A stretch of 64,000 bases of DNA from NCBI GenBank assembly GCA_002254565.1, contig NJEG01000003.1, positions 102 to 64,101 of the forward strand, in the 5' to 3' direction. A model generated the notes under the pieces. It was not told the DNA's origin. It worked only from the letters and a program-made list of their open reading frames with translations, and made no database searches. This stretch comes from Candidatus Altiarchaeales archaeon ex4484_2 (GTDB taxonomy: Archaea > Altiarchaeota > Altiarchaeia > IMC4 > QMZM01). The position numbers and the translations under genes were made by a program. Shown here in pieces: positions 38,049-43,518 of the stretch (positions within the stretch are counted from its first letter, which is position 1; each line of letters opens with the position of its first letter).

Positions 38049-38342
38049 TCTTTCTTATCCCCCTTTTCTTCCATCTCATCTAATGCCTCCTCTACCTCAT
38101 CCAACACCTTATCCACATCAGCAGATTTCTTTCCTCTCTTCCCTGAACTATCTTCTTTCACACCAGACTCCTTTTTTTTATTCCCTGACTTCTTCTCTTT
38201 ATTCTCCGGTGGTTTAGCTGCTGGTGGCTCGGCTGCTGGTGGCTCGGTAGGTGGTTTCTCTTCTTTCTTCCCTGAACTATCTTCTTTCACACCAGACTCC
38301 TTTTTTTTATTCCCTGACTTCTTCTCTTTATTCTCCGGTGGT
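38045..38342 (-). pseudogene. Detached lysine/glutamate-rich tail of the upstream FG-GAP protein, out of frame because of a 4-bp insertion.
   Basis: Removing ccag at the repeat junction fuses ...KKEEKPPAEPP to AAKPPENKEKKSGNKKKESGVKEDSSGK... and the frame then runs to 38045. The tracked M at 38290 is only a GTG inside the repeat. Confidence 0.6.
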
Positions 38343-38394
38343 TTAGCTGCTGGCTGGTGGCTCGGCAGGTGGTTTCTCTTCTTTCTTCCCTGAC
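38138..38394 (-). repeat. Tandem repeat: 129-bp (43-codon) and 118-bp units plus a partial third unit.
   Basis: cctgaactatcttctttcacaccagactccttttttttattccctgacttcttctctttattctccggtggtttagctgctgg occurs at 38142 and 38271. ggtggtttctcttctttcttccctga occurs at 38250 and 38368. Confidence 0.9.
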
Positions 38395-39902
38395 CTGAGC
38401 TTTAGGAACACAACCACAGCCACGACCGCTAAAACCAGCAGAATCAACAAAACCCCTCCAATAATCAATAATAGCATCATATCCATTCCACCACCCTCCT
38501 CTGCTTGGGTGGTGGTTGTGGCGGGTATTGTCGATGGCACTGGTTTTAGTAAGGTTGTTGTTGTTATCTTAATGGTCGAGGTTGTTGATTTTAGGGTGGT
38601 TGTTGTGATGCTTGTTGTTGTAGTAGAACCTGCCCTGATATCCACATCAAAAACCCGCAGTTCTCCTTGGTCGTAGTTGTGGTCTAGTTGGGCCTCCTGC
38701 CAGCCGAAACCGGATGCTATCTCCAAGCTACCGTCTGAGTCGAAGTCTCCTACAGCAATCATCCGGGCGTTTATTTCTTTCTGTTTTTCCAAAATAGTGT
38801 ACATCCAACCAGTCAGGTTCTCCCCATCCGATCCGAACACCTGTATGGATTTAACGCTGCCTGTGATGATTTCTTTGATATTGTCTTTGTTCAAATCCGC
38901 TGTTTCAATACTCAGTATCGTGCTGTCTATCTCTGAATCCCATTTTTTCACGCCATCTGAGTCTACAACGTATAGTTTCGGGTAGGAGCTGAAGATTATC
39001 TCTTTCCTGCCGTCGTTGTCTAAATCCTTCGCCCTGACTGATGAGACCAGCCGCTCTGTTTTATAGTTCCACATCTCGTTTCCTTGGTTGTTGAGTACGA
39101 TGAGTTTATTGTCGTATGCTGCTACCAGAATCTCTTTCCCTCCGTTGTTGTCTATGTCGCTGATGCTTATGCTGTAGTCGTTTGCCTGATAGACTCCCTT
39201 ATCTATTTCATAACTCCATTCTGTTTTGCCTTTTGAATTCAGGACATATAGTGTTGCCTTCTTCCTCTGATCGTTTGTTAATGCTATTATCTCCATCTCA
39301 GGATCCGAGTCAATGTCTACTGCTTTCACGTAGTATGCTGGGTTGTCTAATTCTGCTGTCCACTTGATGCCAAGTTTCAGGTTCCATGAGGATTCAATCT
39401 GTTCCAACAAATATATTTTTCCATGTTTACCAGCAAGTAATATCTCGTTTACGCCGTCTCCGTCGAAGTCTCCCACATCCATAGAGGATATCGAGTCCAG
39501 AGCTTCCTTGGGTTTATATTTCACGGTGGTATCAAGCCCCAGAACATAAAGATATCTGTCCCTATCCAGGGATGTTACTAGCACATCTTTCTCCCCGTCT
39601 CGGTCGAAGTCCATGACCTGAAGGTCTGTTATCTCGTCTTCTATCCCAATGAACTGCCAGGTAGCTGTCCATTGATCCTCACAGTCTTTTAGTTTTAGAT
39701 TGTATACTACGCCGTTGCTTGAGCCGGCGAAGATTTCAGGTATGCCATCATTATTTAAATCAGCTGCCTTCACCAGTTTAATGTGGGGGCCGTTTGTTTC
39801 ATATACGCATGCTGTTTTTATTCCCTCATCTACCGCGGATACGCTGTAGACTAGGAAGGCTATAATCACCCAGTACATTATTTTTGTTTTCATCTTTTTC
39901 AA
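38343..39902 (-). CDS. Secreted FG-GAP/VCBS-repeat (integrin-alpha-like beta-propeller) protein with a Thr-rich stalk and a TM anchor. Its C-terminal tail is truncated.
   Basis: Signal peptide. Eight Dx[DN]xDGxxE[IV] repeats (DLNNDGIPEIF, DFDRDGEKDVLV, DFDGDGVNEILL, and others). TTTTSITTTTLKSTTSTIKITTTT stalk and a TM helix. Confidence 0.8.
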   Translation of the reverse strand: MKKMKTKIMYWVIIAFLVYSVSAVDEGIKTACVYETNGPHIKLVKAADLNNDGIPEIFAGSSNGVVYNLKLKDCEDQWTATWQFIGIEDEITDLQVMDFDRDGEKDVLVTSLDRDRYLYVLGLDTTVKYKPKEALDSISSMDVGDFDGDGVNEILLAGKHGKIYLLEQIESSWNLKLGIKWTAELDNPAYYVKAVDIDSDPEMEIIALTNDQRKKATLYVLNSKGKTEWSYEIDKGVYQANDYSISISDIDNNGGKEILVAAYDNKLIVLNNQGNEMWNYKTERLVSSVRAKDLDNDGRKEIIFSSYPKLYVVDSDGVKKWDSEIDSTILSIETADLNKDNIKEIITGSVKSIQVFGSDGENLTGWMYTILEKQKEINARMIAVGDFDSDGSLEIASGFGWQEAQLDHNYDQGELRVFDVDIRAGSTTTTSITTTTLKSTTSTIKITTTTLLKPVPSTIPATTTTQAEEGGGMDMMLLLIIGGVLLILLVLAVVAVVVFLKLRSGKKEEKPPAEPPASS

Positions 39903-40562: not shown

Positions 40563-41069
40563 ACTGTTGCATTATCTGGCAGCTTCCAAGGAAGTAGTGA
40601 GGCCTTGTTCCGGAATCTCCCGAAGGAGGGGGTTATTCATTCCTCCCTTATTGGGCGGGAGGTTGTTTTCAGGGTGAGAAGTGATAGACTGGATGAAATC
40701 AAAAGCCACCTCTCCAGTATTGGTGTGGAGAACATCAGCATCCTTGAGTGGCGTGAGTCGGGTATGACCTTATCCGGCTCCGGGCTGGGTTCTGATGATG
40801 CTGGTGTGGTGGAGGTTTCCCTGATTCCAACAGCCTCAGGAGAGGGTTTCAGGCAGCTGGCTGTTTTAAGCGAACTAAGCTTTGAGAGATCTTTTCTCCT
40901 GAAGGTTAAGGGCAGGGTTGAGGATGTGTTGGAGGATGCTGGTTTAACTGACGTGCTCTATACGGTAAGAATCAAGAGCGACTCCCAGTTGGAGGAGATA
41001 CTGGATGCTGCCTCAATCGCCACCCTGAATGCGGTCTTTGACGCAAGCGGTGTAATCGCCATAGACTAA
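40554..41069 (+). CDS. Hypothetical protein.
   Basis: I chose the internal ATG at 40554 (MKHTVAL...) to avoid overlap with the divergent methyltransferase gene. No motif recognised. Confidence 0.45.
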   Translation: MKHTVALSGSFQGSSEALFRNLPKEGVIHSSLIGREVVFRVRSDRLDEIKSHLSSIGVENISILEWRESGMTLSGSGLGSDDAGVVEVSLIPTASGEGFRQLAVLSELSFERSFLLKVKGRVEDVLEDAGLTDVLYTVRIKSDSQLEEILDAASIATLNAVFDASGVIAID

Positions 41070-41073
41070 GGCA

Positions 41074-41102
41074 GGAACAAACAGTAGTACGTCTTTATTC
41101 CA
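41074..41102. repeat. Left copy of an imperfect ~30-bp direct repeat flanking the 41.1-42.4 kb cassette.
   Basis: GGAACAAACAGTAGTACGTCTTTATTCCA versus GGAATAAACAAGTAGTTATGTCTTTATTCCA at 42394: 27 matches, 2 mismatches, 2 single-base gaps. Confidence 0.75.
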
Positions 41103-41208
41103 TTTCTCTGATGAATTATTACAAGCCCGTAGCTATAGGGTTATCTAGGGGGTATAGGAGCCTACACAAAATAAACCATTATCTTACTAGAGGTTGGGGT
41201 GTATGAGG

Positions 41209-42318
41209 TTATCTTAGATTAATGAATACCAGTATCTCCCCGAAGCCTTCTTTATTGTATGGCTGGAGAGCTAATCCCACGGTCGGTGATTCTCCTGTTG
41301 CCTTCATACCCACCCCTGGTGTGGAGGATAGCATAATTCGGTCGCCGACTGCGATGGGTCCGTTCTCTGGGGAGACCTTCACCAGCACTCTGCCGGCTAG
41401 GGATACGAGAACCCTTGTTTCGTTGCTGAATTCTTCATCTGCGAACCCCCCTAAAAGGATTCCTGGATTGGCTGAGACCACCCCGATGAGCGGTAAATTT
41501 TTTTGGGCTTTCTGGACGAACACGGGATTCTTCAAATCTAAAGCAACCAGGTCACCTGGTTCTAGGGTGGTGTCTTTTGTCGGATAGTTTTCTGCCAGAT
41601 CCATTTCAGTAACTGCGGTATGTTCAGCGTATATGCTGCCTTGGGTGCGGACTGCATTATCGCAGTTGTCGCCTCCGTCGTCTACGCACAAAACCCCGTC
41701 ATCTATTATCAGGGAGGTTGGGGGTACCTTCCCTGGAGGGACCTCATCTGTGGGGTTGCCCATGTAGATGTTCCCATCACCCCTGATAATCATCCTCGTT
41801 GTTAAGGGGTTGCCTACGCCTGCACCTGTGTTCTCTCTGGTGCGGAATTCAAGTCTTATGGGGCAGTCATCGATTACTGAACACATGCTCCCGTCTGCTA
41901 CAGCCCTGATCTGCGCACCAATCTGGAAATTACCGGGTGAGGGCTGACAGTAGGAATAGAACCCGATCGCTCCAATCGGGTCGTTTGCGGCTGGATTGAA
42001 CGGGTGGCCGCTAGGGGAGTCAGGGCTGTTGCGGGTGCCGGTTGCTCAATAAATGTTAAGGTCTGCTGTCTCGCTTCCGTAGGAGTAGAGGTTGATGTCG
42101 CCGGATCCGTCTTCGCTGTCAATCCGCAATCCACCTGCTAGGAGATGAATTAGTGCTAATGGGTTTGTCTCTCAGATGCCTACCCTATCGCCTGAGGGGA
42201 AAACATAGTCTCCCTGCTGGAAGGTTCCGGGAGATATCTCTTCCGCTGGATGACCCTGTATCGGAGGGCTCTGCGAGAAGACATAGACTGCAAGAGAACA
42301 CAAAACCAGAACCACCAT
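41209..42318 (-). pseudogene. Secreted tail-fiber-like protein gene. It keeps a single reading frame that is interrupted only by two in-frame TGA codons (42172-42174 and 42046-42048).
   Basis: My hand translation of the minus frame from ATG 42318 (MVVLVLCSLAVYVFSQS...) to 41209 gives one continuous frame: ...DRVGI-TGA-ETNPLALIHLLAGGLRID...LNIY-TGA-ATGTRNSP...MCSVIDD.... The tracked 42172-42393 and 41209-41886 ORFs share this frame. Confidence 0.65.
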
Positions 42319-42393
42319 AATACCGTAAGCATGCCTCCTCCCGATATTAAAGTTTACATTGAATTCTATTATCCCCACCTCATTAGATAACAA

Positions 42394-42424
42394 GGAATAA
42401 ACAAGTAGTTATGTCTTTATTCCA
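42394..42424. repeat. Right copy of the imperfect ~30-bp direct repeat; it overlaps the fae-hps stop codon.
   Basis: See the left copy. The TAA stop of fae-hps (42417-42419 on the minus strand) lies inside this repeat. Confidence 0.75.
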
Positions 42425-43518
42425 CGTGCACACGCTTTAGGTCTATGTCTCCGCCTATGAAATCCAGGAACTGCCTTACTGAGCCTTCAACGTCCCTGGA
42501 CTGTGTGATACTCCGCCCTACTATGATTATATCAGCGCCCTCCTTTACCGCCTCCGGCGCCGTCTGGGGGTCTATCCCTCCTGCGACAGCGACCATCAAT
42601 TTCGGGTTCTTCTTCTTCAGCTCCTTTATGAGATGCCATCTCTGCTCCTGCCTTCCTTCCGCGTCAACGCACCGGTGGAGTATCATTATATCAGGCAGGT
42701 CCTTCAGCTCCCCTAGTAGGGCAACAGGGTCTTCCACGTTCATGGTGTCTACTATTGCGTAGATTCCAAGCCTGTGGGCTTCGTAGATGAACTTGTCCAG
42801 CACCTCAGGGGCGGCCAGACCTGAGGCCGAAATCGCTTTTGGTGACCTCTCTGATTTCTTTTATCACCTGAACCCCGTATCTCTTGATTAGTGGAGTGCC
42901 TGCCTCCAGTATTATTTTATCGCTTTTGGGGACCTGAGCTATGACTTTCTTCACCCTCTCTATGTCCGGGACATCTAATGCTATCTGGAGGTATGGTGTA
43001 TTCCATTCCGGTAGTCTTGGTACCTTAAAGCCCATTATTGGATGCACCGCCCGATCTTTATCGTATCTTATTTTTTCTGCGTTGGGGTAGTCTGTTAAGG
43101 CTCTTTTGAGTGCCAGCTTTGTTGCCCCGTAGTTATATTGGTATATCTTCCTATAATCTATTGCCTCAGGGTGTATGAATACGGAGACTATAACAACCCA
43201 TTCATCTATTTTAGCCAGGGGTATGACTTCTTCTTCTACTGAGTCCGCTATTGCTTTGGCAACGGCTGCCTGTGCGGGCCCGAATATTTTCTCCACATCC
43301 TCCATGCCCTGGACTGTTACTTTAGGCACCACGAGGGTGTATGGTTTCGCCGGCAGGTTTGGTCTAATAACTGAGAGCAAGGGTGTATGTCCCTTGGATA
43401 GTTGCGTGAGGCCGTTAGCGAATGCTTCGCCGACGACACCCTCTTTTTCACCGATCATCAAATCAACGTGCGCTACTTCATTACCTGAGCCGACAAGTGC
43501 TTCACCAATCTTGAACAT
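42417..43518 (-). pseudogene. fae-hps: Bifunctional formaldehyde-activating enzyme / 3-hexulose-6-phosphate synthase (Fae-Hps), split by a frameshift near 42805-42845.
   Basis: Fae part: [23 protein letters not shown].... The Hps part starts at YLQIALDV...ILEAGTPLI. The frame changes after EIREVT, and Hps resumes in another frame: [30 protein letters not shown]...VAVAGGI...IIIVGRSI. Confidence 0.75.

What the first reader, a model, noticed from the sequence alone, without database searches (positions are those of the whole stretch)
41209..42318. Secreted tail-fiber-like gene keeps one reading frame across two in-frame TGA codons, one at a Gly-like position
The ORF track splits this region into three ORFs, but 42172-42393 and 41209-41886 are in the same frame. 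My translation of the stretch between them has only two stops, and both are TGA:
- ...FPSGDRVGI-TGA-ETNPLALIHLLAGGLRIDSEDGSGDINLYSYGSETADLNIY-TGA-ATGTRNSPDSPSGHPFNPAANDPIGAIGFYSY...GSMCSVIDD...

There is no frameshift over 1.1 kb. The first TGA sits in a V-G-I-x-x-x-P motif. The same protein repeats that motif as GNIYMGNP, with Gly at the equivalent position, and from memory bacterial tail-fiber-like proteins have VGIGT..P there.

The C-terminal 150 aa match a widespread bacterial module: DLAE.Y...EPGDLV...IGVVS..PG...V.LAGRV.VKV...GPI..GD.....S..PG.GMKA.

Neighbouring genes (trpE, trpG, leuC and others) clearly end in TGA, so the host reads TGA as stop. Possible explanations:
- a recently acquired gene from a UGA-recoded donor (UGA=Gly as in code 25 bacteria, or UGA=Trp as in code 4 organisms or recoded phages);
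- two independent GGA-to-TGA nonsense mutations;
- programmed readthrough or selenocysteine.

The flanking direct repeats favour recent acquisition.
Basis: partly seen in the sequence, partly recalled or inferred. Interest (0 to 1): 0.7.

Follow-up and report, generated by a model that had tools for sequence, protein, structure and literature searches.

The report
Fibre-protein gene broken by two stops
A gene for a phage-tail-fibre-like surface protein in an uncultured Altiarchaeales archaeon carries two genuine premature TGA stop codons, and they look like ordinary knock-out mutations rather than evidence of an unusual genetic code.

Summary
On the minus strand, 42393..41209 is one reading frame with only two stops, both TGA (42174-42172 and 42048-42046). 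Two other assemblies of the same population carry both, so they are not assembly errors.

The window comes from Candidatus Altiarchaeales archaeon ex4484_2. The gene encodes a signal-peptide-bearing fibre-like protein. Its C-terminal domain folds like the phi29 gp12 (pre-neck appendage) C-terminal domain.

Intact full-length homologs exist (435 and 441 aa, 46-48% identity), one of them on an archaeal contig. TGA2 sits at a mostly Arg/Lys position (FYRA[RK]GT). No single reassignment fits both sites, but one-base changes do (GGA to TGA; AGA or CGA to TGA).

The host clearly uses TGA as a stop (22 of 57 long ORFs, with ortholog-matched ends). The gene's codon usage and GC3 are host-like. No homolog has an in-frame stop, and no SECIS-like RNA or tRNA lies nearby.

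Most likely this is a recent, ordinary pseudogene. Import from a recoded donor, selenocysteine and programmed readthrough are unsupported. Interest is low.

The parts
41209..42318 (-). Remnant of a fibre-like surface-protein gene. It has 369 codons if both TGAs are read through. The ATG at 42318 is the likeliest start; in-frame GTG at 42378 and TTG at 42393 are alternatives. The terminal TAA is at 41211-41209.
   Evidence: sequence and translation. (full-length homologs P0032 and P0043 align end to end). (start region compared with relative L001).
42172..42174 (-). First in-frame TGA, in the context GTA GGC ATC TGA GAG (V G I * E). It aligns with the invariant Gly of the VGIGT motif.
   Evidence: codons. 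(Gly in 10/10 aligned stretches; L001 has GGC here).
42046..42048 (-). Second in-frame TGA, in the context AAC ATT TAT TGA GCA (N I Y * A). It aligns with Arg/Lys of the FYRA[RK]GT motif.
   Evidence: (P0032, P0038, P0034, P0033, P0046, P0055 and P0044 have R; P0043 and P0052 have K; P0066 has G twice; P0051 has F).
42268..42318 (-). Hydrophobic N-terminal segment MVVLVLCSLAVYVFSQS. It is inferred to be a signal peptide or membrane anchor.
   Evidence: The homologs P0014, P0032 and P0043 have matching hydrophobic N-termini. No signal-peptide predictor was available, so this is an inference.
42196..42393 (-). The 5' part of the gene that is about 90% identical in DNA to the syntenic gene of a related Altiarchaeota genome (L001, protein P0014).
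41066..42195 (-). Gene body plus 3' flank with no DNA similarity to the syntenic gene of L001. This exchanged or divergent segment contains both TGAs.
   Evidence: blastn homology stops at 42196 and resumes at 41065.
41713..42045 (-). Central fibre module (…IGAIGFYSY…IGAQIRA…DGSMCS…LEFRT…RMIIRGDGNIYMG…). It is shared with multi-repeat proteins and with tail-fibre-like proteins that end in Peptidase_S74.
   Evidence: 38 hits with E<=1e-3. (P0038 and P0034 carry PF13884).
41212..41601 (-). C-terminal domain of about 130 aa (DLAENYP…GVGMKA…VFINLR) with a phi29 gp12 C-terminal fold.
   Evidence: pLDDT 75-98 per 10-residue block over this part. (3suc and 3gqh, E 4e-5 to 7e-5). (BFVD 'preneck appendage protein', E 1.7e-11, TMt 0.68). 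(phrog_4775, pre-neck appendage, E 0.004).
42394..42423 (-). Hairpin-like repeat, copy A: GGAATAAAgacataactacttgTTTATTCC. It overlaps the Fae-Hps stop codon.
41074..41101 (-). Hairpin-like repeat, copy B: GGAATAAAgacgtactactgTTTGTTCC. It lies about 110 nt downstream of the fibre gene's stop.
   Evidence: It is absent at the equivalent place in L001.

Best explanation
This is a recently inactivated gene (pseudogene) for a secreted or anchored surface protein resembling a phage tail fibre, in Candidatus Altiarchaeales archaeon ex4484_2.

The intact protein would have four parts:
- an N-terminal signal peptide or anchor;
- a conserved 'HPAEEISPGTFQ..DYVFP..VGIG' leader;
- a fibre module;
- a C-terminal domain with the fold of the phi29 gp12 C-terminal domain.

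I recall the gp12 domain acting as an auto-chaperone for trimer assembly. By analogy, the C-terminal domain here would help trimer assembly.

Two independent single-base substitutions at first codon positions created the TGA stops. One changed a conserved Gly codon (GGA to TGA, 42174). The other changed a conserved Arg codon (AGA or CGA to TGA, 42048). The host reads TGA as stop, so translation ends after about 48 residues from the ATG at 42318, and the full-length fibre is not made.

Shown: the stops, that they are real, the homologs' residues, host stop usage, host-like codon usage and the fold match.
Inferred: the ancestral codons, the loss of function, and the trimer-assembly role of the C-terminal domain.
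For: 1. TGA is a normal terminator here. It ends 22 of 57 long ORFs, often in ATGA overlaps. PGK (410 aa), LemA (187 aa) and the M48 peptidase (300 aa) end in TGA and have exactly the lengths of their orthologs in L001. No other gene-free in-frame-TGA case exists in the 64 kb.

2. The intact full-length homologs P0032 (435 aa, 48% identity, on an archaeal contig) and P0043 (441 aa, 46%) align over the whole frame. They place Gly at TGA1 and Arg or Lys at TGA2. Across all aligned stretches TGA1 is G in 10/10. The raw TGA2 column reads R 9, G 5, F 3, K 2, others 7. Only part of that column is well aligned, and only two of the G stretches, both from one protein, are.

3. Gly (GGA) and Arg (AGA, CGA) codons are one substitution from TGA. 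GGA makes up 24% of host Gly codons and AGA 28% of host Arg codons.

4. Both stops are identical in two other assemblies.

5. Codon usage and GC3 fall within the host range: GC3 0.546 against a host median of 0.545, and log-likelihood -1.19 within the host range of -1.28 to -1.00.

6. None of 9 tblastn matches in 7 homologous loci (archaeal, Patescibacteria, Peribacteria, Gammaproteobacteria) contains a stop. The TGAs are therefore not conserved recoding sites.

7. Rfam finds no recoding-type RNA in 40800-42600, and there is no tRNA in the window.

8. The base after each in-frame TGA is G. Five of the 21 listed host TGA terminators also have G there, so the context is not special.
Against: - There is no frameshift or other obvious lesion in 1.1 kb despite two nonsense mutations. 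Only about 3.3% of single substitutions in this gene create a stop. If the second stop arose by neutral decay, about 30 other substitutions and perhaps one to three indels would be expected. Their absence is mildly surprising (my rough estimate: 5-20%).
- Both stops being TGA has a chance of about 0.06-0.09.
- Gly does occur at the TGA2 column in one distant homolog (P0066, NLFGNTGT). A UGA=Gly reading is therefore disfavoured by the alignment but not strictly excluded.
- The gene has no TGG codon, against about 3 expected.
- No close relative (>50% identity) of this gene body exists in any collection searched. The ancestral codons could not be observed directly.
- Expression was not tested.
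Confidence: 0.8

Rival explanations
1. The gene body was recently imported from a donor that reads UGA as a sense codon (code 25, UGA=Gly, as in Gracilibacteria and Absconditabacteria; or code 4, UGA=Trp). The TGAs would then be sense codons left over from the donor.
For: - TGA1 lies at an invariant Gly.
- One distant homolog has Gly at the TGA2 column (P0066).
- The C-terminal module is common in Patescibacteria. One genome hit is a Peribacteria MAG, a group I recall as related to Gracilibacteria.
- The gene body from 42195 to 41066 has been exchanged relative to the nearest relative L001.
- The gene has no TGG codon.
Against: - The closest full-length homologs have Arg or Lys at TGA2, and no homolog has Trp at either site.
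- GC is 52% and GC3 0.546, which is host-like or higher. This differs from the low-GC genomes I recall as typical of code-4/25 organisms.
- Only 2 TGAs against 42 standard Gly codons.
- The best full-length homologs are read with the standard code, and the one whose context could be read (P0032) lies on an archaeal contig.
- None of 9 homologous matches contains an in-frame stop, the Peribacteria locus included.
- The N-terminal leader upstream of the exchanged segment belongs to the same conserved architecture as in P0032 and P0043.
- Even if this history were true, the gene would still be untranslatable in this host.
Confidence: 0.05
2. The two UGAs are programmed recoding sites in the archaeon, either selenocysteine insertion or regulated stop-codon readthrough. 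A full-length fibre would then be made at a low or regulated level.
For: - The frame is perfectly preserved for 320 codons after the first stop, with no frameshift.
- Both stops are UGA, which I recall as the leakiest stop codon and the Sec codon.
Against: - Homologs have Gly and Arg/Lys at these positions, not Cys or Sec.
- No relative, including the syntenic L001 gene, has a TGA at either site, so the sites are not conserved.
- Rfam finds no SECIS-like or other recoding RNA in 40800-42600.
- The base after each TGA (G) also follows 5 of the 21 listed host TGA terminators.
- From my own knowledge, Sec use among archaea is known for Methanococcales, Methanopyrus and some Asgard lineages, not Altiarchaeota.
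Confidence: 0.04
3. The locus now works as separate small genes. In particular, the annotated 225-aa ORF (41209-41886, B6U72_00775) would be expressed alone as a functional C-terminal protein.
For: - The 225-aa ORF starts with ATG and is annotated as a protein in the public record.
- It contains the complete, confidently folded C-terminal domain.
Against: - It has no signal peptide and begins in the middle of the fibre module, at '…ADGS-MCSVIDD…', which is conserved within homologs.
- No homolog is organised as a stand-alone protein starting at that point. All extend further N-terminally.
Confidence: 0.07
4. The TGAs are sequencing or assembly errors.
For: The same contig has a clear local defect next door. 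Eighty nt are missing from Fae-Hps relative to other assemblies.
Against: Two other assemblies made with different assemblers (ENA ERZ2433807, whose NODE-style contig name I take to be SPAdes-type, coverage about 12x; and Logan SRR6301444) are base-for-base identical over 41000-42500, including both TGAs. Both also restore the missing 80 nt. They may derive from the same or overlapping reads, so a rare systematic read error is not formally excluded.
Confidence: 0.03

Closest known systems
Bacteriophage phi29 gp12 (pre-neck appendage / tailspike), C-terminal domain (PDB 3suc, 3gqh)
   Same: The C-terminal ~130 aa of the protein (41212-41601) are predicted with high confidence. They match the gp12 C-terminal fragment (Foldseek E 4e-5 to 7e-5, 19-22% identity). 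They also match viral 'preneck appendage protein' models (E 1.7e-11, TMt 0.68, rmsd 2.9). A weak PHROG hit points the same way. As in gp12, the domain sits at the very C-terminus of a fibre or spike-like protein.
   Different: The gene is cellular and lies among archaeal chromosomal housekeeping genes (PGK, Fae-Hps), not in a virus. It has an N-terminal signal or anchor. There is no gp12-like beta-helix enzyme domain. Sequence identity is low. Autocleavage and the chaperone role were not tested. This copy is also disrupted by two stops.
Tail-fibre-like proteins ending in Peptidase_S74 (PF13884, 'chaperone of endosialidase')
   Same: The central module (FYRARGT…IGAQI…LEFRT…RM.I…GN[VI]G[IF]G) is shared with proteins P0038 and P0034, which end in PF13884. 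P0073 has the window's type of C-terminal module as well as PF13884. The VGIGT motif recurs in these proteins.
   Different: The window protein has no S74 domain. Its C-terminus is the gp12-type domain instead.
UGA=Gly recoding (genetic code 25; Absconditabacteria/SR1 and Gracilibacteria)
   Same: One of the two in-frame TGAs sits at an invariant Gly. The C-terminal module occurs in Patescibacteria.
   Different: The host terminates at TGA. The second TGA is at an Arg/Lys position. Composition is host-like. No homolog carries an in-frame TGA. No tRNA(UCA) is in view.
Nonsense-disrupted pseudogenes of surface or adhesin genes in prokaryotes
   Same: There are premature stops relative to intact homologs. 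Each is reachable by one substitution. They lie in a fast-evolving surface-protein gene that is exchanged between relatives.
   Different: No additional decay (frameshifts, deletions) is visible yet, so the inactivation would be recent.

Membership tests
UGA-recoded gene (code 25, UGA=Gly) | In-frame TGAs fall where homologs conserve Gly | tested here: not met
   Site 1: Gly in 10/10 stretches. Site 2: Arg/Lys in the closest and most other well-aligned homologs, with Gly only in P0066. Only one of the two sites fits.
UGA-recoded gene (code 4, UGA=Trp) | In-frame TGAs fall where homologs conserve Trp | tested here: not met
   No Trp at either column in any aligned homolog.
UGA-recoded gene (any code) | The genome that carries it does not use TGA as a terminator | tested here: not met
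   22 of 57 long ORFs end in TGA, many in ATGA overlaps. PGK, LemA and M48 end in TGA at the same length as their orthologs in L001.
UGA-recoded gene (any code) | A suppressor or reassigned tRNA with anticodon UCA is present | not testable with these tools
   There is no tRNA gene at all in the 64-kb window.
UGA-recoded gene acquired from a recoded donor | Donor-like (foreign) composition, and relatives with in-frame TGA | tested here: not met
   GC3 and codon-usage likelihood fall within the host range. There are 0 stops in 9 tblastn matches from 7 homologous loci. No viral relative was found.
Selenoprotein gene | UGA aligns with Cys or Sec in homologs | tested here: not met
   Homologs have Gly and Arg/Lys.
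Selenoprotein gene | A SECIS element is associated with the gene | tested here: inconclusive
   No SECIS family reached E<=5 in 40800-42600. I did not check whether Rfam covers archaeal SECIS elements. The 3' hairpin repeat (41074-41101) is weak, and a copy also follows Fae-Hps.
Selenoprotein gene | Sec machinery (tRNA-Sec, SelB, PSTK, SepSecS) is present in the genome | not testable with these tools
   Only the 64-kb window could be read.
Nonsense-disrupted pseudogene | Premature stops relative to intact full-length homologs, in a host that reads them as stops | tested here: met
Nonsense-disrupted pseudogene | The stops are real in the population, not artefacts | tested here: met
   The sequence is identical in the ENA and Logan assemblies. 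Read-level allele frequencies were not available.
Nonsense-disrupted pseudogene | No full-length product is made | not testable with these tools
   This needs transcriptome or proteome data.
Phage tail-fibre/tailspike-like protein with a phi29 gp12-type C-terminal domain | The C-terminal domain has the gp12 C-terminal fold | tested here: met
   The AF2 model has per-block pLDDT of 75-98 over the domain. Foldseek gives 3suc/3gqh at E 4e-5 to 7e-5 and BFVD preneck appendage proteins at E about 1e-11.
Phage tail-fibre/tailspike-like protein with a phi29 gp12-type C-terminal domain | Trimerisation and autocatalytic release of the C-terminal domain | not testable with these tools
   This is a biochemical property.
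Peptidase_S74 (PF13884) tail-fibre proteins | A PF13884 domain at the C-terminus | tested here: not met
   The read-through protein has no Pfam hit. PF13884 is present only in the relatives P0038, P0034 and P0073.

The most novel reading that the evidence does not exclude
The two UGAs are not dead ends. Either this Altiarchaeales archaeon reads UGA through at a low or regulated level in this surface-fibre gene, as a translational on/off switch for a surface structure. Or the gene body is a very recent import from a UGA=Gly (code 25) organism, which would record gene flow from a recoded bacterium into an archaeon.
Probability: 0.05. Interest if true: 0.6.

Novelty: already known. Interest (0 to 1): 0.13.

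Why it matters
As it stands this matters little. It is a recent pseudogene in a metagenome-assembled genome, and a warning that in-frame TGAs at Gly positions arise readily by GGA-to-TGA mutation.

Three modest side points are useful:
- Altiarchaeota and another archaeon carry chromosomal genes for fibre proteins built from phage tail-fibre modules, including a phi29 gp12-type C-terminal domain. Patescibacteria carry the same modules.
- The gene body downstream of the conserved VGIG leader is exchanged between closely related Altiarchaeota genomes, as happens with tail-fibre tips.
- The public contig has an 80-nt defect in Fae-Hps that other assemblies do not share.

If readthrough or a recoded donor were proven, it would be the first hint of UGA recoding linked to Altiarchaeota. 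Nothing found here points that way.

Tried and rejected
- Pfam on the read-through protein gave no family. PHROGs gave only weak hits.
- A word-indexed search with the middle region, X at the second stop and the first written as Gly, found only self and P0014.
- The exhaustive representative search refuses sequences containing X or stops. I therefore queried the stop-free stretch 41713-42045 and read the upstream residues in the hits.
- A profile search against PDB sequences gave no hit.
- A metagenome scan for close relatives found none. The distant-relative scan added nothing new. A scan of viral contigs found none.
- Rfam on the locus returned only a chance-level RAGATH-35 match.
- A literature search for Altiarchaeota plus stop codon, judged from the titles and abstracts listed, found nothing on recoding.
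- I first took the broken Fae-Hps next door as a sign of a decaying region. I rejected this because the other assemblies have it intact.
- I considered loss of the start codon (ATG in L001 is ATA here) as a third lesion. I left it open because in-frame ATG (42318), GTG (42378) and TTG (42393) remain.
- I considered the ~70-aa segment missing relative to P0032 and P0043 as a deletion lesion. I rejected this because P0038 and P0034 also lack it.
- The hairpin repeats fold only weakly (z -1.2 to -2.1). I could not interpret them as att sites or a SECIS element.

Full report
**Provenance and observation**

The 225-aa ORF at 41209-41886 (minus strand) is identical to 'hypothetical protein B6U72_00775' of Candidatus Altiarchaeales archaeon ex4484_2. 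The 'ex4484' bins are Guaymas Basin MAGs assembled with IDBA-UD (PMC5569505).

Translating 42393..41209 on the minus strand gives one frame with two internal stops. Both are TGA: codon 74 at 42174-42172 and codon 116 at 42048-42046. The first-stage observation is therefore correct.

Two other assemblies of the same population contain 41000-42500 base for base, including both TGAs. These are ENA ERZ2433807 NODE_1414 (coverage about 12x) and Logan SRR6301444. The stops are not artefacts of this contig.

**The neighbourhood**

A related Altiarchaeota genome (L001, GCA_034659295.1) has the same gene order: PGK, Fae-Hps, a secreted protein (P0014, 266 aa), a convergent small gene, a methyltransferase, an FG-GAP protein, ScpB, LemA, M48 and TatD.

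DNA identity in the aligned flanking segments is 86-93%. It runs into the fibre gene up to 42196, vanishes, and resumes at 41065. The 5' leader is therefore shared between the two genomes, while the gene body differs completely.

The apparent frameshift in the adjacent Fae-Hps gene is an 80-nt gap between 42828 and 42827, specific to this contig. L001 and both re-assemblies encode an intact 393-aa protein. It says nothing about decay of the region.

**What the gene encodes**

An exhaustive HMMER search with the stop-free stretch 41713-42045 found 38 relatives. Two are full-length homologs: P0032 (435 aa, 48% identity) and P0043 (441 aa, 46%). They share the whole architecture:
- a hydrophobic N-terminus;
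- the HPA..Q[IV]SPG.FQ.GDY.F..VGIG leader;
- a fibre module;
- a CVDDGGDNCD linker;
- a C-terminal DLAENYP…GVVS..PG.LLGG…LAGRVPVKV…GPI.IGD…PGVGMK module.

P0032 lies on an archaeal contig with histone, prefoldin, L37ae, a diphthamide synthesis gene and family B DNA polymerase. There it sits directly after PGK. That PGK is only 32% identical to the window's.

Other relatives of the central module end in Peptidase_S74, the tail-fibre intramolecular chaperone.

The C-terminal domain was modelled with AlphaFold2 (10-residue block means of pLDDT 75-98 over the last ~130 aa). It matches the phi29 gp12 C-terminal fragment (3suc and 3gqh, E 4e-5 to 7e-5). It also matches viral 'preneck appendage protein' models (E 1.7e-11, TMt 0.68).

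'Tail-fibre-like' is therefore justified. From my own knowledge, the gp12 C-terminal domain is an auto-chaperone that is cleaved off after trimer assembly. That role is inferred here, not shown.

**The two TGAs**

TGA1 aligns with the Gly of VGIGT in 10 of 10 homologous stretches. The syntenic L001 gene has GGC there.

TGA2 aligns with the residue after [FY][YF] in the FYRA[RK]GT motif. That residue is:
- Arg in P0032, P0033, P0034, P0038, P0044, P0046 and P0055;
- Lys in P0043 and P0052;
- Phe in P0051;
- Gly only in P0066.

No homolog has Trp or Cys at either site. No single reassignment (Gly, Trp or Sec) explains both sites. Single first-position substitutions do: GGA to TGA, and AGA or CGA to TGA. 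GGA and AGA are common host codons (24% of Gly and 28% of Arg codons).

**Does the host, or a donor, read TGA as sense?**

- TGA ends 22 of 57 long ORFs, many in ATGA start/stop overlaps.
- PGK, LemA and M48 end in TGA at exactly their orthologs' lengths.
- A scan for other in-frame single-stop junctions found only consecutive real genes, and no further unannotated TGA case.
- The gene's GC3 (0.546) equals the host median (0.545), and its synonymous-codon likelihood lies within the host range. Its GC of 52% is above the host's 47%. This is unlike the low-GC lineages I recall as using codes 4 or 25.
- Nine tblastn matches in seven homologous loci contain no stop. These include Patescibacteria, a Peribacteria MAG and Gammaproteobacteria.
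- No viral relative was found.
- No SECIS-like or other recoding RNA and no tRNA lie nearby.
- The base after both in-frame TGAs is G, as for 5 of the 21 listed host TGA terminators.

**Residual oddities**

- Both stops being TGA has a probability of about 0.06-0.09 under random nonsense mutation of this gene.
- There are no frameshifts, although a second neutral nonsense hit would typically come with about 30 other substitutions. This estimate follows from the 3.3% nonsense fraction.
- The gene has no TGG codon.
- No close relative of this gene body exists in the collections searched, so the ancestral codons are inferred rather than observed.

These points keep a small probability on readthrough or a recoded donor.

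**The flanking repeats**

A roughly 30-nt imperfect hairpin, GGAATAAA…TTT[A/G]TTCC, occurs at 42394-42423, overlapping the Fae-Hps stop. It occurs again at 41074-41101.

The two copies bracket the whole gene, including the leader that is conserved with L001. The exchanged segment starts inside the gene, at the VGIG motif. The second copy is absent from L001. The repeats therefore do not mark the boundaries of an insertion carrying the TGAs. Their role is unknown.

**Verdict**

This is a real but ordinary feature: a recently nonsense-inactivated gene for a phage-tail-fibre-like surface protein in an Altiarchaeales MAG. The recoding and acquisition interpretation is not supported.

Noticed in passing
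window 42827/42828 (Fae-Hps gene, 42417-43518, minus strand): The contig lacks 80 nt that are present in two other assemblies (L002, L003) and in the relative L001. The gap removes '…VIADLKTLDVGQVEVDLSYDEGADAVV…' and shifts the frame, splitting the 393-aa Fae-Hps into 237-aa and 128-aa ORFs. There is no microhomology at the edges. It is probably an assembly artefact or a minor variant of the deposited MAG contig.
   Followed up: yes
window 42394-42423 and 41074-41101: An imperfect direct repeat of about 30 nt forms a weak hairpin (GGAATAAA-loop-TTT[A/G]TTCC). One copy overlaps the Fae-Hps stop and the other lies about 110 nt 3' of the fibre gene. L001 has only the first copy. Function is unknown (terminator-like element or recombination scar?).
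   Followed up: partly
window 41066-42195 versus L001 3443-4075: Between two Altiarchaeota genomes whose flanks are 86-93% identical, the body of the fibre gene is replaced by unrelated sequence. The exchange starts at the conserved VG[IV]G motif. The pattern resembles the module swapping of phage tail-fibre tips.
   Followed up: partly
L004 5111-7640: The intact full-length homolog P0032 sits immediately downstream of PGK in a distant archaeon. That PGK is only 32% identical to the window's, while the fibre protein is 45-48% identical. This is either a conserved PGK neighbourhood or coincidence. The higher fibre identity hints at horizontal transfer among archaea.
   Followed up: no
window 38255-38360 (3' end of the FG-GAP / Thr-rich surface-protein gene, 38343-39902, minus strand): Assemblies disagree here only (3 mismatches and 4 gaps in L002). 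The gene is 519 aa in the window and 566 aa in L001. The gene's Thr-rich tract ('TTTTSITTTTLKSTTST…') lies at this end and is probably length-variable or hard to assemble.
   Followed up: no
window 1-64000: ARAGORN finds no tRNA or tmRNA gene in the whole 64 kb.
   Followed up: no
window 42376-42393 versus L001 3266: The ATG start of the L001 ortholog corresponds to ATA in the window. The window in turn has ATG (42318) where L001 has GTG, and an SD-like GAGGTG sits just upstream of the ATA. The true start of the window gene is ambiguous.
   Followed up: partly
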